IMG/VR virus record: IMGVR_UViG_2563366831_000011
Location: 1-50,364 of that record
Direction: 5' to 3' (one strand)
DNA length: 50,364 nt
From: a virus
Lineage: Duplodnaviria > Heunggongvirae > Uroviricota > Caudoviricetes
Program-made: the position numbers and the translations under genes
Shown: positions 1 to 39,694 of the stretch, one piece after another
Numbering within the stretch: the stretch's first letter is position 1
Layout of the letters: every line of letters begins with the position of its first letter
The notes under the pieces: model-generated
The model's input: the letters and a program-made list of their open reading frames with translations, nothing else
The model's database searches: none
What the model was told of the DNA's origin: nothing

Positions 1-933
1 ATGGACAACGACAAAATTGATCAACACAGCGACGAAATTGAAGTTGAGAGCGAAGAAAAAGAGCGCGGCAAAAAAATAGAAATAGATGAAGATCGACTCC
101 CCTCCCGGGCGATGGCAATTCATGAGCATATCCGCCAGGATGGTGAAAAAGAGCTGGAACGCGACGCAATGGCGCTACTGTGGTCAGCCATTGCGGCGGG
201 TCTGTCGATGGGCGCTTCGCTACTGGCAAAAGGGATATTTCATGTCGAACTGGAAGGAGTGCCAGGCAGCTTCTTACTGGAGAATCTCGGTTATACCTTT
301 GGTTTTATTATCGTCATTATGGCCCGCCAGCAATTATTTACCGAAAACACCGTGACTGCGGTACTACCCGTCATGCAAAAACCGACAATGAGCAACGTCG
401 GCTTACTTATGCGATTATGGGGCGTCGTGCTGCTGGGTAATATTCTCGGGACAGGTATTGCTGCATGGGCATTTGAATATATGCCTATCTTCAATGAAGA
501 AACTCGCGATGCATTTGTCAAAATCGGCATGGATGTGATGAAGAACACCCCCAGCGAGATGTTTGCCAACGCGATCATTTCCGGCTGGCTGATCGCCACT
601 ATGGTTTGGATGTTTCCTGCTGCGGGTGCGGCAAAGATTGTGGTGATTATATTGATGACCTGGCTTATTGCACTGGGTGACACCACCCACATCGTTGTCG
701 GTTCTGTTGAAATCCTCTATCTGGTGTTTAACGGCACGCTGCACTGGAGCGATTTCATCTGGCCCTTCGCACTACCTACTTTAGCGGGGAACATCTGCGG
801 CGGCACCTTTATCTTCGCGTTAATGAGTCATGCACAGATTCGTAACGACATGAGCAACAAGCGTAAAGCAGAAGCACGCCAAAAAGCAGAACGTGCGGAA
901 AACATTAAGAAAAATGATAAAAACCCAGCATAA
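1..933 (+). CDS. yfdC: Inner-membrane formate/nitrite transporter (FNT) family protein
   Basis: 310-aa ORF starting at window base 1; multiple hydrophobic segments; recognised from memory as E. coli YfdC, which lies next to argW. Confidence 0.8.
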   Translation: MDNDKIDQHSDEIEVESEEKERGKKIEIDEDRLPSRAMAIHEHIRQDGEKELERDAMALLWSAIAAGLSMGASLLAKGIFHVELEGVPGSFLLENLGYTFGFIIVIMARQQLFTENTVTAVLPVMQKPTMSNVGLLMRLWGVVLLGNILGTGIAAWAFEYMPIFNEETRDAFVKIGMDVMKNTPSEMFANAIISGWLIATMVWMFPAAGAAKIVVIILMTWLIALGDTTHIVVGSVEILYLVFNGTLHWSDFIWPFALPTLAGNICGGTFIFALMSHAQIRNDMSNKRKAEARQKAERAENIKKNDKNPA

Positions 934-1008
934 ATGGCGAGGGTTTAAGCAATCGAGCGGCAGCGTACTTACCCCGCAGTCCATTAGCGGGTATACTCAT
1001 GCCGCATT

Positions 1009-1083
1009 GTCCTCTTAGTTAAATGGATATAACGAGCCCCTCCTAAGGGCTAATTGCAGGTTCGATTCCTGCAGGGGACACCA
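1009..1083 (+). tRNA. argW: tRNA-Arg (anticodon CCU)
   Basis: 75-nt sequence GTCCTCTTAGTT...GGTTCGATTCCTGCAGGGGACACCA folds as a cloverleaf by eye; anticodon loop CT-CCT-AA; ends in CCA. Confidence 0.9.
1069..1083 (+). repeat. attL core: 15-bp direct repeat CTGCAGGGGACACCA (tRNA 3-prime end)
   Basis: Identical 15-mer recurs at 48661..48675; integrase lies immediately inside. Confidence 0.65.
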
Positions 1084-6913: not shown

Positions 6914-8209
6914 TTACCACTCGATATGCACAATGCCATCGGCGCCATCGCCGGACGGGTAAGCTATTCCGCTGAAATCAATATCGTAAGCACCACCACC
7001 GCCAGAGCCTGCTGCTTTCCCTTTCACACCGCCGGTTGCGCCGCTGCGTCCTCCGCCACCCCAGAACGAAGCCCCGCCAGAACCGGTAAGCATGTTGGTC
7101 GCAGCCTGGCCGTCATGACCAGTGCCACCCTGAATGTTGATATCGCCACCTGACGCAACACCGCCATCACCACCGGCGCTGTTCACGATGCTGGCCTTGT
7201 TGGATTTTTTTCCACCGCGGCCGAAGATGATCCCACCCAAAGAAGAGTCACCGCCGTCATTGCCCGATACGGCACCTAAAACCGCTGCACCGCCTTTGCC
7301 GACGACAACGGATAAGGTCGTTCCCGGGACAACGTCCAGCCAGCCTAAAGCTGTACCGCCAGCCCCGCCACCGCCACCGCTATAGGACTCACTTGAGGAG
7401 GACGCCTGACAACCGCTTCCGGATCCGCCTGCACCCGTCACGGTGTAACGAATGCGCGTCACCCCTGCAGGCACGACGAACGAATACGTCCCGTTGACTG
7501 CGTAAGCGATGTTTCCGTGAGGCTTCGAAAGGGAGGTTACGTTGGTTCCATCGGAGTGGATTTGCGTAACCGTTCCTGGCTTGCTGACAACTGTTGCGCC
7601 CGCCGCCCTGGTACTTAACTGAACGTAGTAAGCGCTGCCGGTGCAGTTATTTTCGATGGTCCAGTCTTTCACCCATGGAGGGAGATATAGGATCCGGTTA
7701 CCAGTTAGCGCGCCGGTGAGAATTAGCCGTGGGTTAGCAGCCTGCAGATCGGTGGCGTTAACGTTAGCCGTCGATATTGAAATGCTGGCCGCTCCGCATC
7801 CCCATGAAGGCATCCAGCCAGATGCCGTTGCATCGGTTTTTTCCGGTGCGGTGTTATTGGAGTCAATGGTGTTGAGCCACGACACCGAGTAATCGCTGGA
7901 AGGGATCACCGCACCTTTAGGGTAGCCTGAAATTGCTGTTCTGAAATCTGCGTTAAAGGGGTACCCCATCCCGGCATCCGACCATTGCAGGCGAGTGTAA
8001 AGATCATTAAAAATGCCGTTAAAGTCCTGACCCTTTGGCGGCTTACCGCCGGCAGAAAGTGCGATACGGGTCAGCGGCGGGAAACCGGAATCCATAGCCG
8101 CCAGGCCGTCGGCCAGCGTTTCAGAGGTGGAATTGACCGGGATCGTGTTTTTGTCGCCGCTCGCAGAAAATACAACCGTCAGACGTGACGGTATGGCTGA
8201 ATTATTCAA
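6914..8209 (-). CDS. Tail fibre protein with glycine-rich C-terminal domain
   Basis: 431 aa; C-terminal Gly-rich domain (GGGGGAGGTALGW...GGKGG...AYDIDFSG) paralogous to 2410..3441; follows the baseplate I-like gene. Confidence 0.7.
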   Translation of the reverse strand: MNNSAIPSRLTVVFSASGDKNTIPVNSTSETLADGLAAMDSGFPPLTRIALSAGGKPPKGQDFNGIFNDLYTRLQWSDAGMGYPFNADFRTAISGYPKGAVIPSSDYSVSWLNTIDSNNTAPEKTDATASGWMPSWGCGAASISISTANVNATDLQAANPRLILTGALTGNRILYLPPWVKDWTIENNCTGSAYYVQLSTRAAGATVVSKPGTVTQIHSDGTNVTSLSKPHGNIAYAVNGTYSFVVPAGVTRIRYTVTGAGGSGSGCQASSSSESYSGGGGGAGGTALGWLDVVPGTTLSVVVGKGGAAVLGAVSGNDGGDSSLGGIIFGRGGKKSNKASIVNSAGGDGGVASGGDINIQGGTGHDGQAATNMLTGSGGASFWGGGGRSGATGGVKGKAAGSGGGGAYDIDFSGIAYPSGDGADGIVHIEW

Positions 8210-30019: not shown

Positions 30020-30688
30020 TCACGCCAGCTTAAGCATGCACGTCCCGCACGCTCTGGCAACATCGATATGAGCAACCTCCGCCGGCCTGTTCGCAGCATC
30101 CACCATTTCCTGCACGTCTTTGCTGGCGCCGTAACGCCGGACAACTCCGACGAATTCCTCGACGTCGTGGCCGCGAAGTTTGAGCACCGGCATACCGGTC
30201 TCTTTGTTGAATTTCGGCGCGCCATAGTCATCGGTAGCCTGGGCGATGTGGTAAAGCTCATGCTCTACCAGTGCGCAGAACTCCAGATCGTTGCATTGCT
30301 CGCAGTAGTCAGCAGCCAGGGTGATGATGAACTTCGGTATGCGTCCGAACCATTCATGCATCTGCTGCTCCATTCTGGCTTTCTGCCAGCCACCGGCGCG
30401 CATCATTACCTGCTCACACTGGCCCAGCACAATGCGGCCGCTTTTGGCGAATGAGCCAGAGGCCCACATGAACGCGACATCAGCATCGAGCAAGTGCGCA
30501 TGGTCAGGGTTATGGATTCGGCCATCTTCGGAGAGGATGTTCTGATTTACCCATTCGCCGATTTCGGCAGCAGGGATCAGCCGGGTATAAGGCAGCCAGT
30601 TTTCGCCAGTGAAGTTGACGGGAGGGTATGGTCTGCGATTGTCATTTCCAGCCATACAGAATAATCCTCTGGGTTGCTTTGATGCCAT
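30020..30688 (-). CDS. HExxH-motif protein (putative zinc metallopeptidase-like), unknown function
   Basis: 222 aa; HELYH motif and flanking Cys clusters (CEQCNDLEFC, CGTC); first gene of the packaging operon. Confidence 0.4.
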   Translation of the reverse strand: MASKQPRGLFCMAGNDNRRPYPPVNFTGENWLPYTRLIPAAEIGEWVNQNILSEDGRIHNPDHAHLLDADVAFMWASGSFAKSGRIVLGQCEQVMMRAGGWQKARMEQQMHEWFGRIPKFIITLAADYCEQCNDLEFCALVEHELYHIAQATDDYGAPKFNKETGMPVLKLRGHDVEEFVGVVRRYGASKDVQEMVDAANRPAEVAHIDVARACGTCMLKLA

Positions 30689-30828
30689 TTCGGTAATTTC
30701 GACACCGCAGTACCCGTAAACTCACATAAAACTCTGTCAATGATACAAAAAGGCATCATTTGCAGAACTTTATAAAATTATTGAACGCCTCTTTCGGTAC
30801 CTACCTTTGTCTGCCGGCATGGATGTGC

Positions 30829-30848
30829 TTGTCTCTTATAAGAGACAA
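30829..30848. promoter_or_regulatory. Perfect 20-bp palindrome TTGTCTCTTATAAGAGACAA
   Basis: Self-complementary over all 20 positions; lies in a 620-bp noncoding island. Confidence 0.5.
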
Positions 30849-30890
30849 AGACTGCTCAGAAGCTATTAAGACTCACTATTAGGAAGGGCT

Positions 30891-30930
30891 TGTCCAACAC
30901 GTTGGACACTCAATAGTGGCGAGTATAGAA
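30891..30930 (+). promoter_or_regulatory. Inverted repeat TGTCCAAC-AC-GTTGGACA overlapping a candidate sigma70 promoter
   Basis: 8-2-8 inverted repeat sharing the GTTGGACA motif with the ori iterons; TTGGAC, 16-bp spacer, TATAGA. Confidence 0.4.
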
Positions 30931-31041
30931 CGAAAAATAACCGTTCAAGGCCTTTAATGTTACACGAGTAGGAACAGCCACAGGAGGAATAAGTTACACA
31001 ATAGAAATCAGACTTCGCCCAATAATCAAAAAGGAGAATAA

Positions 31042-31158
31042 ATGTTGAAAATCAGTTTGTTTAGAACAATCGTCAATCACAAAATAACCTTCGCTGTCAT
31101 CTGCTTCCTTTTGAGCCTGATTCACTTCTACTTAACCGGCTCGCCTCTATCTTTCTAA
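31042..31158 (+). CDS. Small hydrophobic peptide (38 aa), hypothetical
   Basis: AAGGAG Shine-Dalgarno 7 nt upstream of the ATG; product MLKISLFRTIVNHKITFAVICFLLSLIHFYLTGSPLSF is mostly hydrophobic; opposite strand to the flanking late genes. Confidence 0.3.
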   Translation: MLKISLFRTIVNHKITFAVICFLLSLIHFYLTGSPLSF

Positions 31159-31311
31159 TCCTCGATTAATCCAAATTTCACTGCCATAATGCCGACATTC
31201 TCTGCCATTGTTGGCTCCGTTTATCCGTTAAAAGGGATATCAGTTAAGTTATCCCGTGCAGGGTATAAGCCATTATCAAGCCCCCCGTAGATAGGCTTTG
31301 TAATGACATCT

Positions 31312-31836
31312 TCAATTAATCAGCAGTTCAGGCTGTGTCACCTGCAAGATGTATTCATGCTCGACAGCCAGGACACGCTTCTCTTTCTTCCGTTCGTTCA
31401 TTAACCGACTGCCGATCGTACCTTTCAGCTTTGAGCGTGTTTCTTTGATGGCGTAGCGGTGCTGCATTTCTTCGCCAATTGCCATGCGGCGGCTCAGTTG
31501 CTCTGCCATCCAGTTGAATGCTGCGATATAGCTCTCCTTGATTGCCGCAGCAGCTTTCCCGGTGAACCCCATCACAACCATGATCCAGCCATCTTTCGTC
31601 AGGCTGTACATCGGGCGAACCTTGCCCTGCTCATCGATATAATCAGCCGACGCAAAATTGCGTTGGCTAAACTCACGCGAGCAATCAGCCTTAACCTGCT
31701 CGATTTTCCTGAGAACATCACCGTGTCGCTTGCCGAAGTACTTGGCAATTTTTCTGGATGTGGTAACGACCTCTCCGTTTTTGGCTTGCACCATTTCTCG
31801 GAAGTCGAAGGCTGGAATAACTGAATGATTATTCAT
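31312..31836 (-). CDS. rha: Rha-family phage regulatory protein (moron copy 2)
   Basis: 174 aa from MNNHSVI (tracked ORF starts at 31872); paralogous to 17959..18516; shared C-terminal AFNWM motif. Confidence 0.65.
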   Translation of the reverse strand: MNNHSVIPAFDFREMVQAKNGEVVTTSRKIAKYFGKRHGDVLRKIEQVKADCSREFSQRNFASADYIDEQGKVRPMYSLTKDGWIMVVMGFTGKAAAAIKESYIAAFNWMAEQLSRRMAIGEEMQHRYAIKETRSKLKGTIGSRLMNERKKEKRVLAVEHEYILQVTQPELLIN

Positions 31837-31847
31837 AGCGTCTTTAC

Positions 31848-31937
31848 CTTTTAGAAAGTGAGCCTGTCTCACAGAAAAGCCGCCCGAGAGAGGTCGCCAC
31901 CTATAACGGCATTTCTCAGGCTCGCTTACTGAAAGGC
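31848..31937. repeat. Conserved Rha leader element, copy B
   Basis: About 85 percent identical to 18527..18616, same position relative to the rha start codon. Confidence 0.7.
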
Positions 31938-33494: not shown

Positions 33495-33570
33495 TGGTGC
33501 TGTTTAACGGACTTGAACCGCTACCCATTCGCTTACAAGGCGACCGCTCTACCATTGGAGCTAAAACAGC
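33495..33570 (-). tRNA. tRNA-Thr (anticodon UGU), phage-encoded
   Basis: 76 nt; perfect 7-bp acceptor stem, 4-bp D stem, anticodon loop CTTGTAA, T-loop TTCAAGT, discriminator A then CCA (folded by eye). Confidence 0.75.
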
Positions 33571-33575
33571 ATGTT

Positions 33576-33650
33576 TGGCGGGACAGCGTGGACTCGAACC
33601 ACGATAAGAAGGTTAACAGCCTTCCGTAATGACCTTTATACGACTGACCC
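33576..33650 (-). tRNA. tRNA-Asn-like (anticodon GUU), possibly degenerate
   Basis: 75 nt; 5-bp anticodon stem with loop CTGTTAA, T-stem and TTCGAGT loop, terminal CCA; one mismatch each in acceptor and D stems. Confidence 0.45.
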
Positions 33651-33713: not shown

Positions 33714-34232
33714 CTAAATGGATAATTGCATGTCAAGGCTTTTAACAGCAACATGCTTAACTTTCTCAACACGTTTACGCATTTTAAAAGCATTTTGCAT
33801 TGGCTGGTATAAAACAAATAATGACGCTTTCAGGATGTCGTCAATTTCGTTTCTACAGGTTGCCAGTGAAGGTTTTCTCCATCCCTCGCCACCACGTCCA
33901 CACATCTTGCGTGGCTTTGCAGTCGCGTGATAGTAGGATGCAATTGCTCGCTTAGATGAACCATGAGCGTAGTAGCTTAGGAGGATGCCAAAGGCTTTCT
34001 TGTCAATGTACATGACGGAATCGACGACCTGAGAAATCAACATTCCATCGTCATCATTACACATTGGCCTTGTCATAACTCTTCCCGGCTCTACGCTCTC
34101 CATGAACTTCGCTATTACGCTGCTCATGCGCTTTTCCAGACGACCTGAATAAACCCATGCGCCCCACAGTTCAAGCCAGCCATTCAGCCACTCATGCTGT
34201 TCTTTGGTGAGGTTTAGTTCTCTTATGCCCAC
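33714..34232 (-). CDS. Q: Late antiterminator Q (non-lambda type)
   Basis: 172 aa; WGAW...[12 protein letters not shown]...[10 protein letters not shown] pattern recalled from 933W-type Q proteins; located between the nin genes and the lysis cassette. Confidence 0.6.
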
Positions 34233-37377: not shown

Positions 37378-38829
37378 TCAGAATCCTCCTTTCTTCTTGG
37401 ACTGCGGTTCCTCGCGTTCACGGCGGCGCATTTCAGCAGACTGTTGGTCTGTGTCATAAATAGCGCCATTTGCCTGAATGCAATACACCGTGCCGGTATT
37501 GCCATGACGATTGAGACGAAGGATTAGTTCGGTTTCACCAGGTGGAACACTGTCATCAAAAGCACCTTCACGATGGATCCCCACCCAATAATCGCAATCC
37601 TGTTCAATCTGCCCTGTATCTCGTGAGTCACTTGGTAGTGGGCGTTTATTGGTTCGGCTTTCCAGTGCGCGGTTAAGCTGCGTCAGAAGCACAACAACGC
37701 AATCAAGCTCTTTGGCAAGGTTCTTCAGTCCTTTGGTGATCATGCCGTAAGCAAGGTCGTTGCGATCGGCCTTCTCAGCGGTCATTAGTGTCAGGTAATC
37801 GACCAGAATCATGCCAACACATCCTTTTTCTCGCTTGATTCGACGGCTTTCGCTGACGATTTGAGCCAGAGATAATCCCGGCGTGTCGTCGATGTAAAGC
37901 ATGTCGATTTCACTCAAGCGATTGGCTGTTTCGATCGCCCTGTTGAAGTCACCATCGTAATCACCCTGATAGCCGTCATCAGCGTCATTTGTCGCCGGAA
38001 GGTAAAAAATATTCGGGTTAACACCTGACTTCTGTCCTACCAGTTTTTCCAGTATCTGATCACCTGGCATTTCAAGGCTGAACATCAAAGCGGGCTTTTT
38101 CTCATGCACTGCGCAATTGATTGCCATCTGGCTGTATAGCGTCGTTTTCCCCATCTTAGGGCGAGCGCCAATGACAAACAGAGAGCCTTTCACCAGACCT
38201 TTCGGTGACAGCATCCTGTCCAGCGATGGGATCCCTGTGCTCATTCCCCGTTGTTCGCCTGATGGGTCAAATCGCTTCTCAAGGTCGCTAACCCAGTCTT
38301 CCATGACCTCACCAAATGAGCGAAGGCCGCGACGCGATCCGGTTTTTGCATGGTCTGTCAGTTGCGTGAAAATCGCCTGAATAGCTTCGTACTTCTGCAT
38401 TGCAGTCATTCCGTTGCGGGAATAGAGCAATTCCGTCGCTTCAGTCATGCGGTTGATGGCGTAGCGTTCCATTGCGGTTTCACGAACCTGCATTGCATAG
38501 GCAACGATGTTTGCTGCGCTTGGCGTGTTCTTTGCGATCTCAGCGATATAAGCAAAACCGCCAACAGACGCCGTTAACGATTTACGCTCCAGTTCATCGA
38601 AAAGCGTCAGGCCATCTACTGGCTTTTGCTCACGGTGCATTCTGGTTATTTCTTCGAAAAGGATTTTGTGTGGTCGGCTGTAAAATGAATCAGGCTTCAG
38701 CATCGCCAGAACTTTCTGGACGCGCTCACTGCTGTCATCATCCAGAAGCAATCCACCAATCACCGCCTGCTCTGCCTCGATGCTATGGGGCGGCGCATAA
38801 AAATTATCGGTCATCGTGTTCACCCTCAC
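37378..38829 (-). CDS. Replicative DNA helicase (DnaB-like)
   Basis: 483 aa; N-terminal PHSIEAEQAVIGGLLLD DnaB signature; Walker A GARPKMGKT; directly downstream of the initiator. Confidence 0.85.
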   Translation of the reverse strand: MRVNTMTDNFYAPPHSIEAEQAVIGGLLLDDDSSERVQKVLAMLKPDSFYSRPHKILFEEITRMHREQKPVDGLTLFDELERKSLTASVGGFAYIAEIAKNTPSAANIVAYAMQVRETAMERYAINRMTEATELLYSRNGMTAMQKYEAIQAIFTQLTDHAKTGSRRGLRSFGEVMEDWVSDLEKRFDPSGEQRGMSTGIPSLDRMLSPKGLVKGSLFVIGARPKMGKTTLYSQMAINCAVHEKKPALMFSLEMPGDQILEKLVGQKSGVNPNIFYLPATNDADDGYQGDYDGDFNRAIETANRLSEIDMLYIDDTPGLSLAQIVSESRRIKREKGCVGMILVDYLTLMTAEKADRNDLAYGMITKGLKNLAKELDCVVVLLTQLNRALESRTNKRPLPSDSRDTGQIEQDCDYWVGIHREGAFDDSVPPGETELILRLNRHGNTGTVYCIQANGAIYDTDQQSAEMRRREREEPQSKKKGGF

Positions 38830-39694
38830 GAACTTTCAGGTAGGTATTATCGTTAAGCAGGAAATCAAATCCCTTTTTGTGCCAGACGGTTCCGCGCTGA
38901 TGGTTTGGGCGCTCTTCGAACATCCATCGGCAATTTTCGCCTACGTAGCTCAAATAATTTCTCCAGTCCTGCATCGTGAAACCATGCCCGTCAAGCTGTC
39001 GGGTTATCACTCCGGCTTTGCGCCAGAACGTTCGGATCTGGTTTTTACGCTTGTCATTCAGTGCGCGGATTCTTGGCGCTTCAGGAAGGATTTCGTGGTA
39101 AGCATCGACAACATCCTGACAGCTGACGGAAGGTTTTTTCTTGTCAGACTTTTTGTCTGCTGTGGCACTCTCTAATACGTCAGTATTAGAGATATTATTT
39201 ATATTATTGTTTATGGACAACCGTTGGACAACCGTTGGACAATCTCCGCTGAGAGGCGCGCCATTACTGGTGTTTGCGTTGGACAACCGTTGGACAACCG
39301 TTGGACAATTTTTTGCCTGAAAATCGTCATATTTAACGATTGTAAACAGGCTAAATTTCTTCCCCATCGAGCAAATATTAAGCATCCCTTTCGACTCAAA
39401 AGTCCGTAATAAGCTCCGAACTTTGTTGTCGGGGATGAATGTTTCTCTGACCAGCGACGGGCGTCCAGTTATCATCTGACCGCGATCAACAGTTATCGGC
39501 CCGATATCCGTATTGACGACAGTAGATTCGTGATTAGCCTTGAGGATTAAGTGAAGCCAAAGATGTACTGCCTGAGAGTCCTTATAGAGCCTGCTGTCCA
39601 TAAACTGGCGGTGTATAGAGACATACCCCATACTGGATGCCTCCTGATGTTGTACAGGGTTATGCCTGTAATCAGCTAACTTAACGACGCCCAT
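38804..39694 (-). CDS. Replication initiator (lambda O-like organiser) with internal origin
   Basis: 296 aa; AGGAG SD; iteron arrays lie inside the coding sequence and encode repeated CPTVVQRLS peptides. Confidence 0.7.
   Translation of the reverse strand: MGVVKLADYRHNPVQHQEASSMGYVSIHRQFMDSRLYKDSQAVHLWLHLILKANHESTVVNTDIGPITVDRGQMITGRPSLVRETFIPDNKVRSLLRTFESKGMLNICSMGKKFSLFTIVKYDDFQAKNCPTVVQRLSNANTSNGAPLSGDCPTVVQRLSINNNINNISNTDVLESATADKKSDKKKPSVSCQDVVDAYHEILPEAPRIRALNDKRKNQIRTFWRKAGVITRQLDGHGFTMQDWRNYLSYVGENCRWMFEERPNHQRGTVWHKKGFDFLLNDNTYLKVREGEHDDR
39214..39308. repeat. Origin iterons: two clusters of three TGGACAACCGT repeats, followed by an AT-rich tract
   Basis: Repeats at 39214..39242 and 39280..39308; AT-rich sequence immediately after; inside the initiator gene as for lambda ori. 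Confidence 0.7.

What the first reader, a model, noticed from the sequence alone, without database searches (positions are those of the whole stretch)
30689..31311. 620-bp noncoding island in the late operon with a perfect 20-bp palindrome and an iteron-like inverted repeat
Between the rha copy 2 stop and the first packaging gene there is no ORF of 60 aa or more on either strand. The region contains a perfect palindrome TTGTCTCTTATAAGAGACAA (30829..30848) and an 8-2-8 inverted repeat TGTCCAAC-AC-GTTGGACA (30891..30908) that shares GTTGGACA with the origin iterons and overlaps a plausible promoter. Its position just upstream of the terminase genes makes it a candidate for the packaging site (cos/pac), a regulatory hub, or an sRNA locus.
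Basis: seen in the sequence. Interest (0 to 1): 0.5.

Follow-up and report, generated by a model that had tools for sequence, protein, structure and literature searches.

The report
Phage-polymerase promoter trap in prophage
The supposed non-coding island is a cassette read opposite to the prophage's late genes: four promoters of the kind used only by the private RNA polymerases of T7/SP6-like virulent phages, lined up before a 38-residue membrane peptide, probably a tripwire that fires when such a phage infects the lysogen.

Summary
Both palindromes are real and lie at the stated coordinates, but the island is neither non-coding nor a packaging site. On the + strand, antisense to the late operon, it carries in order: the 20-bp palindrome, a T7/Berlinvirus-type promoter, the 8-2-8 inverted repeat, a Molineuxvirinae (F4M1D)-type promoter, a Drulisvirus (KP34/KpV71)-type promoter, a phage-6939-type promoter, an AAGGAG ribosome-binding site and a 38-aa hydrophobic ORF (31042-31158). 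Each promoter is the best match in the whole 50-kb window. The three that could be scored fall within the range of the podophage's own promoters. Both palindromes are repeated intergenic elements of those same podophages. The window encodes no phage-type RNA polymerase. The same layout recurs in other temperate phages next to at least four unrelated terminase modules, with promoter slots swapped to match the host: K11-type in Klebsiella prophages, T7- plus SP6-type in E. coli and Shigella. The E. coli version is in 632 of 5,426 complete E. coli genomes, unannotated. The iteron resemblance is not conserved. Tandem T7-like promoters in enterobacterial prophage-like islands were reported by Chen and Schneider (2006). 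No functional study was found. Best reading (inferred): a DNA-encoded sensor of infecting podophage polymerases that drives a small membrane peptide.

The parts
30656..30809 (.). Flank belonging to the metallopeptidase/terminase module; not part of the cassette
   Evidence: Conserved only in relatives that also carry the PF18894 metallopeptidase gene. In L008, L009 and L024, which have a different upstream gene, homology starts about 15-20 nt before the palindrome.
30829..30848 (.). 20-bp perfect palindrome TTGTCTCTTATAAGAGACAA; copy of a repeated intergenic element of 6939/Tola-type podophages; marks the 5' edge of the cassette
   Evidence: Exact palindrome. TTGTCTC(C/T)TATA(A/G)GAGACAA occurs 5-6 times per genome in Klebsiella phage 6939 and Aeromonas phage Tola, often 3-25 nt before their promoter. 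It is the best-conserved element of the cassette: column identity 0.98, 18 of 20 columns invariant in 13 distinct cassettes.
30864..30886 (+). P1: T7/Berlinvirus-type promoter TATTAAGACTCACTATTAGGAAG; predicted +1 at A30881 (inferred by alignment)
   Evidence: GACTCACTATT is identical to BA14's annotated promoters, TAATACGACTCACTATTGGGAAGggc. The weight-matrix score is 23.4 bits, within BA14's natural range of 18.0-37.0, and is the top hit of the window. BLAST hits are almost all T7-group phages, several under an annotated 'promoter' feature. ST13-OXA48phi12.5 and L009 lack one T and read GACTCACTATAGG, as in T7.
30891..30908 (.). 8-2-8 inverted repeat TGTCCAAC-AC-GTTGGACA; copy of a repeated intergenic element of F4M1D-type podophages; lies at about +11 to +28 of the predicted P1 transcript
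   Evidence: It is part of a 49-nt block that is 86-90% identical to about 15 Molineuxvirinae genomes, where it follows the RNA polymerase gene terminator. F4M1D has four more perfect copies. Only the left arm is invariant among cassettes. In E. coli-type cassettes it is a 13-bp hairpin with a T-rich tail, dG -18.4 kcal/mol, z -4.1.
30911..30933 (+). P2: Molineuxvirinae (F4M1D)-type, SP6-like promoter CAATAGTGGCGAGTATAGAACGA; predicted +1 at G30928 (inferred)
   Evidence: The core AATAGTGGCGAGTATAGAA is exact. F4M1D has about 13 copies, all on the coding strand and nearly all directly after gene ends. Score 31.7 bits against a natural range of 21.4-38.7; next-best window hit 8.8.
30953..30975 (+). 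P3: Drulisvirus (KP34/KpV71)-type promoter TTTAATGTTACACGAGTAGGAAC; predicted +1 near G30971 (inferred)
   Evidence: Two mismatches to KpV71 TTTAATGTTACAGGAGTAGGAAT, which lies between the end of the RNA polymerase gene and the next gene. A second intergenic copy is at KpV71 12864. 223 Klebsiella phage records match, typically at 2 places each. The next-best window match has 7 mismatches. 17 of 21 columns are invariant among cassettes.
30987..31008 (+). P4: Klebsiella phage 6939-type promoter GAATAAGTTACACAATAGAAAT; predicted +1 at G31004 (inferred)
   Evidence: AAGTTACACAATAGAA is exact. Phage 6939 has at least 9 coding-strand copies directly after gene ends: TerL, DNA polymerase, and just before the capsid gene. 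Score 26.5 bits against a natural range of 16.6-31.2; next-best window hit 12.6.
31031..31036 (+). Ribosome-binding site AAGGAG, 5 nt before the ATG
   Evidence: Every cassette variant has AAGGAG(G) at this distance.
31042..31158 (+). 38-aa hydrophobic peptide MLKISLFRTIVNHKITFAVICFLLSLIHFYLTGSPLSF, the only product of the cassette
   Evidence: The family has 54 clusters of 36-40 aa in Klebsiella and E. coli, all labelled 'hypothetical', with no Pfam, NCBIfam, PHROG or PADLOC match. Pooled pN/pS is about 0.45 and third codon positions vary most. GRAVY 1.23, with one 19-aa hydrophobic stretch. AlphaFold2 gives a single helix over residues 2-32, mean pLDDT 84. It is absent from Autographiviridae genomes.
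31159..31197 (.). Remnant of the cassette's usual 3' flank, the end of a convergent spanin gene in relatives
   Evidence: Aligns with the conserved 3' flank TAATCCCCGCCTTATCCAGATTGCACTGCC of relatives. Window 31100-31197 is 85-87% identical to SfIV and vB_EcoS phages.
31199..31311 (.). Separate mosaic segment, not part of the cassette: the conserved intergenic DNA that follows Rha / Sf6 gp66 in many lambdoid and P22-like phages
   Evidence: Elsewhere this stretch is followed by a DUF2560 gene, which is missing here.

Best explanation
The core of the island (about 30810-31158, + strand) is a moron-like cassette inserted between the lysis and packaging genes of a temperate phage and read antisense to the late operon. 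It is an array of four promoters, each specific for the single-subunit RNA polymerase of a different lineage of virulent podophages: T7/Berlinvirus, F4M1D-type Molineuxvirinae, KP34-type Drulisvirus and the 6939 group. Two palindromic elements of podophage type sit among the promoters. A strong ribosome-binding site and a 38-aa single-helix hydrophobic peptide follow. Shown: the sequence matches, their strand and order, their conservation, the absence of a cognate polymerase gene, and the recurrence and modularity of the cassette. Inferred: the cassette is silent in an uninfected lysogen and during the prophage's own lytic cycle. When a cognate podophage infects, its newly made polymerase fires one of the promoters and the peptide is made in quantity. 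The peptide inserts into the inner membrane and either kills the cell early (abortive infection) or blocks the podophage, so that sister lysogens are spared. In this reading, recognition is encoded in DNA promoter sequence rather than in a sensor protein.
For: (1) For each of five reference motifs, the best match on either strand of the 50-kb window lies in the island. The four directional promoter sites are all on the + strand. Mismatches are 5, 2, 2, 1 and 0, against 7, 7, 7, 5 and 6 for the runners-up. Weight-matrix scores of P1, P2 and P4 fall within the range of the podophages' own promoters. (2) The reference motifs are real promoters or promoter-like repeats. BA14's are annotated. F4M1D has about 13 copies and phage 6939 at least 9, all on the coding strand directly after gene ends. 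KpV71's lies immediately after its RNA polymerase gene. (3) The window has no phage-type polymerase: its largest ORFs are tail, portal, terminase and DnaB-type proteins. (4) No sigma-70-type promoter lies upstream of the ORF in three cassette variants. (5) Promoter cores and the palindrome are better conserved than the spacers in 13 distinct cassettes: identity 0.92-0.98 with 70 of 99 columns invariant, against 0.78 with 25 of 89. (6) The slots are modular and match the host. Klebsiella prophages have a K11-type promoter in slot 1, which matches 136 Klebsiella phages of about 40 kb. E. coli and Shigella phages SfIV, 640R1 and locus L028 have T7/BA14-type plus SP6-type promoters; L028 matches the SP6 consensus exactly from -17 to +4. 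L035 keeps only a 6939-type promoter, an exact 21/21 match. (7) The cassette always occupies the same slot and strand but sits next to at least four unrelated packaging modules. (8) The ORF keeps its length, ribosome-binding site and hydrophobic helix across five divergent allele groups, and it is found only in temperate phages. (9) The E. coli version is in 632 of 5,426 complete E. coli genomes.
Against: There is no experimental evidence of any kind: no transcript, no toxicity test, no phage-resistance phenotype. P1 has 5 mismatches to the BA14 consensus and an A at the predicted +1. The Drulisvirus 'promoter' is itself only a prediction, based on two intergenic copies per genome. No terminator follows the ORF in the window, so phage-polymerase transcripts would run on antisense into Rha and the lysis genes. 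Constraint on the peptide is only moderate (pN/pS about 0.45, from 82 changes) and the alleles are very divergent. Only the left arm of the 8-2-8 repeat is conserved, and neither palindrome has an established role. The window's array targets mostly Klebsiella podophages, although its flanks are about 99% identical to E. coli prophages and only 5 of 5,426 E. coli genomes carry this array. No known defence family matches the peptide.
Confidence: 0.55

Rival explanations
1. Helper-dependent expression for the prophage's own benefit (a satellite-like reading, which as I recall is the direction Chen and Schneider 2006 took). The temperate element uses the polymerase of an infecting T7-like phage to express its own genes, for escape or spread rather than for defence.
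For: The facts are the same: tandem phage-type promoters without a cognate polymerase. In some E. coli prophages the bor/iss lipoprotein gene lies downstream on the same strand and could be co-transcribed.
Against: In the window and in most relatives the only co-oriented ORF is the 36-40-aa peptide. Everything further downstream is antisense to lysis and regulatory genes. No replication, excision or packaging function is placed under these promoters.
Confidence: 0.13
2. Non-functional recombination scar. Pieces of podophage regulatory DNA were captured by illegitimate recombination during superinfection and simply persist in a permissive moron slot.
For: The 49-nt block is 86-90% identical to Molineuxvirinae DNA, which indicates direct capture. 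Both palindromes are also podophage elements. The island is visibly mosaic.
Against: All promoters point the same way at a conserved ribosome-binding site and ORF. Promoter cores are better conserved than the spacers. Slots are replaced by other near-consensus promoters rather than decaying. The architecture recurs across five ORF allele groups, thousands of contigs and 12% of E. coli genomes.
Confidence: 0.1
3. The cassette serves the infecting podophage, not the prophage. For example, the peptide could help podophage lysis or takeover, or the promoters could act as recombination or replication-priming sites for the podophage, since T7 origins are promoter-dependent.
For: The captured F4M1D block and the KpV71-type promoter both come from the position just after the polymerase gene, which is where T7's primary origin lies (established knowledge). 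The segment after the promoters is AT-rich.
Against: The cassette is carried and conserved by temperate phages, never by the podophages, so selection acts on the prophage and lysogen. A single chromosomal copy gives the podophage nothing it lacks.
Confidence: 0.07
4. A cis-acting element of the late operon on the - strand, or a small RNA made by the host polymerase. The two palindromes would be processing, pausing or protein-binding sites in the late transcript, or an sRNA would be made here.
For: The palindrome folds as a stable hairpin, dG -11.1 kcal/mol, z -2.7. The island lies inside the late transcription unit.
Against: No Rfam family matches. No sigma-70 promoter or terminator lies inside the island. 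This reading does not explain four near-consensus podophage promoters, the ribosome-binding site and the ORF, all on the + strand.
Confidence: 0.05
5. Packaging site (cos/pac), or a binding site for the phage's replication initiator.
For: The island lies upstream of the terminase genes, and 8-9 nt (CGTTGGACA) are shared with the five origin iterons.
Against: The cassette is independent of terminase type. A gene separates it from TerS. PDP110P1 and Kp4864-1 keep the repeat without any such iterons, and podophage F4M1D has the repeat at several sites.
Confidence: 0.03

Closest known systems
Tandem T7-like promoter regions in enterobacterial prophage-like islands (Chen and Schneider 2006, Nucleic Acids Res 34:1133)
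   Same: Two or more promoters of the T7/SP6 group in tandem inside prophage-like DNA of enterobacteria, with no cognate polymerase gene. The E. coli/Shigella cassette found here (T7-type plus SP6-type) is very probably what they described.
   Different: I could see only the title, in reference lists. The paper itself is not held, so its content is from memory. The window's array has four promoters in 150 bp, three of them for Klebsiella podophage lineages sequenced long after 2006. The conserved 36-40-aa ORF as sole product, the host-matched slot swapping, the podophage palindromes and the defence reading may or may not be in that paper.
Engineered 'triggered suicide' phage defence in Lactococcus: a phage-inducible promoter driving a lethal gene (Djordjevic, Klaenhammer and colleagues, 1997; recalled from memory)
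   Same: The logic is the same: a promoter that only the infecting phage can activate drives a lethal product and aborts the infection.
   Different: That system is synthetic, uses a host-polymerase promoter activated by a phage factor, and kills with a restriction endonuclease. This one is natural, relies on the specificity of the phage's own polymerase, carries several specificities and encodes a tiny membrane peptide.
Type I toxin-antitoxin toxins (Hok, TisB, ZorO, Ldr, Ibs)
   Same: A hydrophobic single-helix peptide under 60 aa with a strong ribosome-binding site and a long leader, carried on mobile DNA.
   Different: There is no sequence similarity to any such family. No antisense RNA gene or host promoter was found. 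Here silence would come from the lack of a usable promoter rather than from an antitoxin RNA.
Lambda morons bor and lom
   Same: Same slot, after the lysis genes and before the packaging genes, and same opposite orientation to the late operon. In 640R1 and E. coli 203740, bor/iss lies just downstream of the cassette.
   Different: bor has its own host promoter and is expressed in the lysogen. This cassette has only phage-polymerase promoters.
Helper-activated phage satellites (P4, PICIs, PLE)
   Same: A resident element stays silent until a specific infecting phage supplies the activating factor.
   Different: Satellites sense helper proteins and then replicate and are packaged. Here the element is a 350-bp cassette with a single peptide inside a complete temperate phage.

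Membership tests
Tandem T7-like promoter island (Chen and Schneider 2006) | Two or more T7/SP6-group promoters in tandem within a few hundred bases | tested here: met
   Four promoter-like sites lie within 30864-31008 on the same strand. Each is the best match in the window.
Tandem T7-like promoter island (Chen and Schneider 2006) | No cognate single-subunit RNA polymerase gene in the element | tested here: met
   The largest ORFs (483-716 aa) are GDSL/tail, SLT, DUF3383, portal, TerL and DnaB. None has a phage polymerase domain or the size of one.
Tandem T7-like promoter island (Chen and Schneider 2006) | Located in prophage-like DNA of an enterobacterium | tested here: met
   The context is Q antiterminator, tRNAs, holin, lysozyme, Rz, Rha, the cassette, then metallopeptidase, TerS and TerL. 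Relatives are in E. coli and Klebsiella.
Functional phage-polymerase promoter | Specific initiation by the cognate polymerase at the predicted +1 | not testable with these tools
   Only sequence scores are available. P1, P2 and P4 fall in the natural score range. P3 has 2 mismatches to a KpV71 site.
Abortive-infection / anti-phage defence system | Reduces productive infection by specific phages | not testable with these tools
   No PADLOC match. No functional paper was found.
Type I toxin-antitoxin system | Small hydrophobic toxin peptide | tested here: met
   38 aa, GRAVY 1.23, one helix over residues 2-32.
Type I toxin-antitoxin system | Antisense or divergent antitoxin RNA with its own host promoter and terminator | tested here: not met
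   No sigma-70-like promoter on either strand and no terminator within the island. No Rfam antitoxin family matches.
cos/pac packaging site | Co-occurs and co-varies with one terminase type, adjacent to or within the small-terminase gene | tested here: not met
   The same cassette lies next to DUF2280+TerL, PBSX-type, HNH+P27-type TerS+TerL, Terminase_2+Terminase_6 and Phage_portal_3 modules. A 211-222-aa gene separates it from TerS.
cos/pac packaging site | Virion DNA ends map to the site | not testable with these tools
   No virion-end data are available. In the linear SfIV record the end lies beyond the HNH gene, more than 400 bp from the cassette, but this shows record layout only.
Iteron / initiator-binding site | The site co-occurs with the cognate origin iterons and initiator | tested here: not met
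   PDP110P1 and Kp4864-1 keep the inverted repeat with no other GTTGGACA copy and share 0 of 236 15-mers with the window's origin. F4M1D has the repeat at 5 sites.
Intrinsic (Rho-independent) terminator | GC-rich hairpin followed by a T run | tested here: not met
   No site within 30656-31311 in the window. The homologous repeat in 640R1 does qualify: 13-bp stem plus T-rich tail.
Known RNA family (Rfam 15) | Covariance-model match at or near the gathering score | tested here: not met
   Only tRNAs reach threshold in the window. The best hits in the island have E of 0.8 or more and score far below gathering.

The most novel reading that the evidence does not exclude
A natural 'promoter-trap' immune cassette in which recognition of the invader is written purely in DNA. 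It would be a swappable array of promoters, each read only by the private RNA polymerase of one lineage of virulent podophages, wired to a single small membrane-active peptide. Temperate phages would assemble and update the array by capturing regulatory DNA from the phages that attack their hosts. If so, it is a sensor-less, multi-specific, abortive-infection or exclusion system present in about 12% of E. coli genomes and many Klebsiella, and missed by every annotation pipeline and defence catalogue.
Probability: 0.4. Interest if true: 0.9.

Novelty: new variant of a known kind. Interest (0 to 1): 0.72.

Why it matters
Known anti-phage systems sense phage proteins, nucleic-acid structures or damage to the host. 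Here the invader's own transcription machinery would read out the defence gene, so specificity could be changed just by swapping a 20-bp promoter. That would be a mechanistically distinct and very compact solution. It would also give a function to sequences first noticed in 2006 and apparently never followed up, and would explain a conserved unannotated feature of hundreds of E. coli and Klebsiella genomes. There is a practical side for phage therapy too, since T7-, SP6-, K11- and KP34-like podophages are leading therapeutic candidates against E. coli and Klebsiella: a lysogen's promoter repertoire might predict which of them fail. The hypothesis can be tested directly with standard reagents, because T7 and SP6 polymerases are commercial.

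Tried and rejected
- **Rfam.** Searches at gathering and permissive thresholds found only tRNAs and noise.
- **Host promoters and terminators.** The sigma-70 and terminator scans found nothing inside the island.
- **Origin iterons.** The link to the origin iterons was rejected, because relatives keep the repeat without the iterons and a podophage has the repeat at several sites.
- **cos/pac.** Rejected on independence from terminase type.
- **Sequencing artefact.** The palindrome resembles the Tn5/Nextera mosaic end (CTGTCTCTTATA). I rejected an artefact because the palindrome is conserved in independent assemblies and repeated in podophage genomes.
- **Known peptide families.** Pfam, NCBIfam, PHROGs and PADLOC give no match for the peptide.
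- **Podophage origin of the peptide.** tblastn finds it only in temperate phages.
- **RNA hairpin role for the 8-2-8 repeat.** The hairpin is strong in the E. coli-type cassette, weak in the window and absent in several Klebsiella variants, so the role is left unresolved.
- **Species-representative genomes.** Two scans with cassette patterns returned nothing, so taxonomic breadth beyond Escherichia/Shigella and Klebsiella is unknown.
- **Second site in the window.** A BA14-like site at 7380 scores 16.0 bits but lies inside a tail gene with no ORF downstream, so I judged it chance.
- **Prior work.** Attempts to read Chen and Schneider 2005 and 2006 failed because neither is held. Ten literature searches found no functional follow-up.
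- **Link to the sit island.** I looked for sit genes next to the E. coli-type cassette in two genomes and found none.
Full report
**The observation.** The late operon of this temperate phage runs on the minus strand. In order it contains a Q-type antiterminator (33714-34232), two tRNAs, holin, lysozyme, Rz, Rha (31312-31872), then the island, then a PF18894 'phage metallopeptidase' gene, a DUF2280 small terminase and TerL. GTTGGACA is also the core of five direct repeats at 39223-39307, giving 7 copies in the window against 1.56 expected. No ORF of 60 aa or more lies inside the island. Rfam gives nothing but tRNAs, and a consensus scan finds no sigma-70 promoter and no intrinsic terminator within the island.

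**The island is a mosaic and it is not non-coding.** BLAST splits it into three parts.
- 30689-31006 travels with the metallopeptidase/terminase module in a few E. coli and Klebsiella temperate phages.
- About 31007-31185 is shared only with Klebsiella phage Kp4864-1.
- 31199-31311 is the common intergenic stretch that follows Rha / Sf6 gp66 in thousands of genomes.

On the plus strand, antisense to the late operon, there is a 38-codon ORF (31042-31158) with AAGGAG 5 nt before the ATG. Every relative that shares the left segment has a plus-strand ORF of 36-38 codons at the same place behind AAGGAG(G), but with strongly divergent sequence. The conserved 3' flank in relatives is simply the end of a convergent spanin gene.

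**The left segment is an array of podophage promoters.** A sensitive BLAST of the island unexpectedly hit about 15 virulent Klebsiella and Proteus podophages of the subfamily Molineuxvirinae. The hit covers 49 nt that include the 8-2-8 repeat, and in those phages it lies just after the phage RNA polymerase gene. In phage F4M1D the 3' part of that block, TAATAGTGGCGAGTATAGAA(G/C), recurs about 13 times, always on the coding strand and almost always directly after a gene's stop, so it is that phage's promoter. The window has the 19-nt core exactly (30912-30930).

Three more sites were then identified in the same way.
- TATTAAGACTCACTATTAGGAAG (30864-30886) matches the annotated promoters of Berlinvirus BA14, TAATACGACTCACTATTGGGAAGggc.
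- TTTAATGTTACACGAGTAGGAAC (30953-30975) matches the motif that follows the polymerase gene of Drulisvirus KpV71, and it hits 223 Klebsiella phage records.
- AAGTTACACAATAGAA (30991-31006) is the exact core of a motif present at least 9 times after gene ends in Klebsiella phage 6939.

For every motif the best match on either strand of the 50-kb window is the one in the island, and the four promoter sites are all on the plus strand. Mismatches are 5, 2, 2 and 1, against 7, 7, 7 and 5 for the next best. Weight matrices built from each phage's own sites score the window sites at 23.4, 31.7 and 26.5 bits. These fall inside the leave-one-out ranges of the natural promoters (18.0-37.0, 21.4-38.7 and 16.6-31.2), and all other window positions fall below those ranges. 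All four sites point at the small ORF. By alignment with the T7 and SP6 conventions (established knowledge) the starts would be near 30881, 30928, 30971 and 31004; that step is inference. The window has no phage-type polymerase gene.

**The two palindromes are podophage elements too.** The 20-bp palindrome is a repeated intergenic element, TTGTCTC(C/T)TATA(A/G)GAGACAA. It has 5-6 copies per genome in Klebsiella phage 6939 and Aeromonas phage Tola, often a few bases upstream of their promoter. The 8-2-8 repeat occurs at four more intergenic sites in F4M1D, in either orientation.

The resemblance to the window's origin iterons does not hold up. PDP110P1 and Kp4864-1 conserve the repeat but have no other GTTGGACA copy and share no 15-mer with the window's origin region. 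What the palindromes do in the podophages is unknown.

In the cassette, the 20-bp palindrome marks the left edge and is the best-conserved element. Where the upstream gene differs, homology begins about 15-20 nt before it. The 8-2-8 repeat lies at the 5' end of the predicted P1 transcript. It is a strong, terminator-like hairpin in the E. coli-type cassette (dG -18.4 kcal/mol, z -4.1), weak in the window, and lost in several Klebsiella variants in which only the left arm survives. I leave its role open. The options are a 5' stabilising hairpin, an insulator against read-through, or a protein-binding site.

**The cassette is a recurrent, modular unit.** Shigella phage SfIV and E. coli phage vB_EcoS-640R1 have an unrelated packaging module (HNH, TerS, TerL). 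In the same slot and orientation they carry a T7/BA14-type promoter, the same inverted repeat, an SP6-type promoter, AAGGAGG and a 40-aa ORF ending LSLIHFYLTGSPLSF, like the window's peptide. SfIV's SP6-type site is ATTTAGGTGACACTTTAGAAGGA, compared with the SP6 consensus ATTTAGGTGACACTATAGAAGAG (established knowledge).

Other contexts show slot swapping.
- Klebsiella prophages have a K11-type promoter (AATTAGGGCCCACTATAGAG) in slot 1, matching 136 Klebsiella phages of about 40 kb.
- E. coli locus L028 matches the SP6 consensus exactly from -17 to +4.
- L035 retains only an exact 6939-type promoter.

Across 13 distinct cassettes, promoter cores and the palindrome are better conserved than the spacers: 0.92-0.98 column identity against 0.78. 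The E. coli-type cassette is in 632 of 5,426 complete E. coli genomes with nothing annotated there. The window's array is in only 5.

**The peptide.** A profile search found 54 clusters, almost all 36-40 aa, on thousands of Klebsiella and E. coli contigs. All are labelled 'hypothetical', and none matches Pfam, NCBIfam, PHROGs or PADLOC. There are five allele groups. Within the groups, third codon positions vary most and pooled pN/pS is about 0.45 from 34 synonymous and 48 non-synonymous changes. This is modest evidence of coding constraint, reinforced by the fixed length and the ribosome-binding site. All alleles are hydrophobic (GRAVY 0.67-1.69). AlphaFold2 models the window peptide as one helix, residues 2-32, mean pLDDT 84. 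The peptide is found only in temperate phages, not in podophages.

**Mechanism.** The architecture is shown. The function is inferred. The cassette has no usable host promoter and is antisense to the prophage's own late transcript, so it should be silent until a polymerase that recognises one of its promoters appears. That happens only when a cognate podophage infects. The strong ribosome-binding site would then give a burst of a small membrane peptide. The most economical outcome is early loss of membrane integrity, that is, abortive infection. A variant is interference with the podophage's membrane-spanning DNA-entry or lysis apparatus. Selection on a prophage favours such protection of clonal lysogens. 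The host-matched promoter repertoires are what a sensor would predict.

Weak points:
- There is no experimental evidence.
- P1 is an imperfect promoter with A at +1. T7 polymerase can start with A at its phi2.5 promoter (recalled from memory).
- The Drulisvirus promoter is only predicted.
- The window has no terminator after the ORF.
- The peptide is only moderately constrained.

[quoted passage not shown] It shows that tandem T7-like promoters in prophage-like regions have been reported. I saw the title only in reference lists. The paper is not held, and one review links it to the prophage-like sit island. From memory, they found two or three tandem promoters without a polymerase gene and discussed activation by a T7-like phage; I could not verify this. 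Ten full-text searches found no functional follow-up.

I therefore file the window's island as a new variant of a known kind. It shows the same phenomenon, here with four promoters, three of them for Klebsiella podophage lineages. It adds a conserved peptide effector, host-matched slot swapping and co-captured podophage palindromes, and it comes with a concrete, testable defence model.

**Verdict.** This is not a packaging site, an iteron or an sRNA locus. It is a promoter array for foreign phage polymerases in front of a tiny membrane peptide.

Noticed in passing
window 30655-30688: The 222-aa 'first packaging gene' (PF18894 phage metallopeptidase) probably starts at the second ATG (30655, MAGNDN...). 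That ATG has a GAGGA upstream, and PGAP annotates the homologue as 211 aa. PHROGs labels the family 'transposase', which looks like a mislabel.
   Followed up: partly
window 39223-39307: Five direct copies of (C)CGTTGGACAA(C/T) at 11-bp spacing in two groups, next to an AT-rich stretch and a DnaB-type helicase gene (37378-38829). This is presumably the replication origin. Its 9-nt identity with the right arm of the island's inverted repeat appears to be coincidental.
   Followed up: partly
window 7380-7402 (+): CTATAGGACTCACTTGAGGAGGA scores 16.0 bits with the BA14 promoter matrix, just under the weakest natural BA14 promoter (18.0). It lies inside a 431-aa minus-strand gene with no ORF downstream, so it is probably chance.
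   Followed up: partly
L022 (Shigella phage SfIV NC_022749.1) locus 633-755; record gene V416_gp53: The gene annotated 'Rz-like spanin' gp53 (locus 701-1042, minus strand) overlaps the 3' end of the 40-aa cassette ORF on the opposite strand. This may be a mis-annotation. The near-perfect SP6 and T7/BA14-type promoters in SfIV are not annotated.
   Followed up: no
L023 (vB_EcoS-640R1) 1740-2033 and L040 (E. coli 203740) 7451-7744: In E. coli-type cassettes the serum-resistance lipoprotein gene bor/iss lies about 180 nt downstream of the small ORF on the same strand. A podophage polymerase starting in the cassette would also transcribe it.
   Followed up: no
L017 (F4M1D) 8774, 10197, 11416, 33536; L020 (phage 6939) 6946, 14787, 15024, 17772, 22906: Two families of perfect or near-perfect palindromes are repeated in intergenic DNA of virulent podophages, in either orientation and often just upstream of promoters or gene starts. 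I know of no described function for them. They may be binding sites for a phage regulator.
   Followed up: partly
window 31158-31180 and 31308-31330: An imperfect direct repeat (74% over 23 nt) flanks the stretch between the small ORF's stop and the Rha stop. It may be a trace of the recombination that joined the cassette to the Rha module, and the DUF2560 gene that normally follows this intergenic stretch is missing.
   Followed up: no
window 1009-1080 (+) and 33498-33650 (-): There are three tRNA genes: one near the left end of the window, possibly the integration site, and two between the Q gene and the holin gene, as in phage 21 and Sf6.
   Followed up: no
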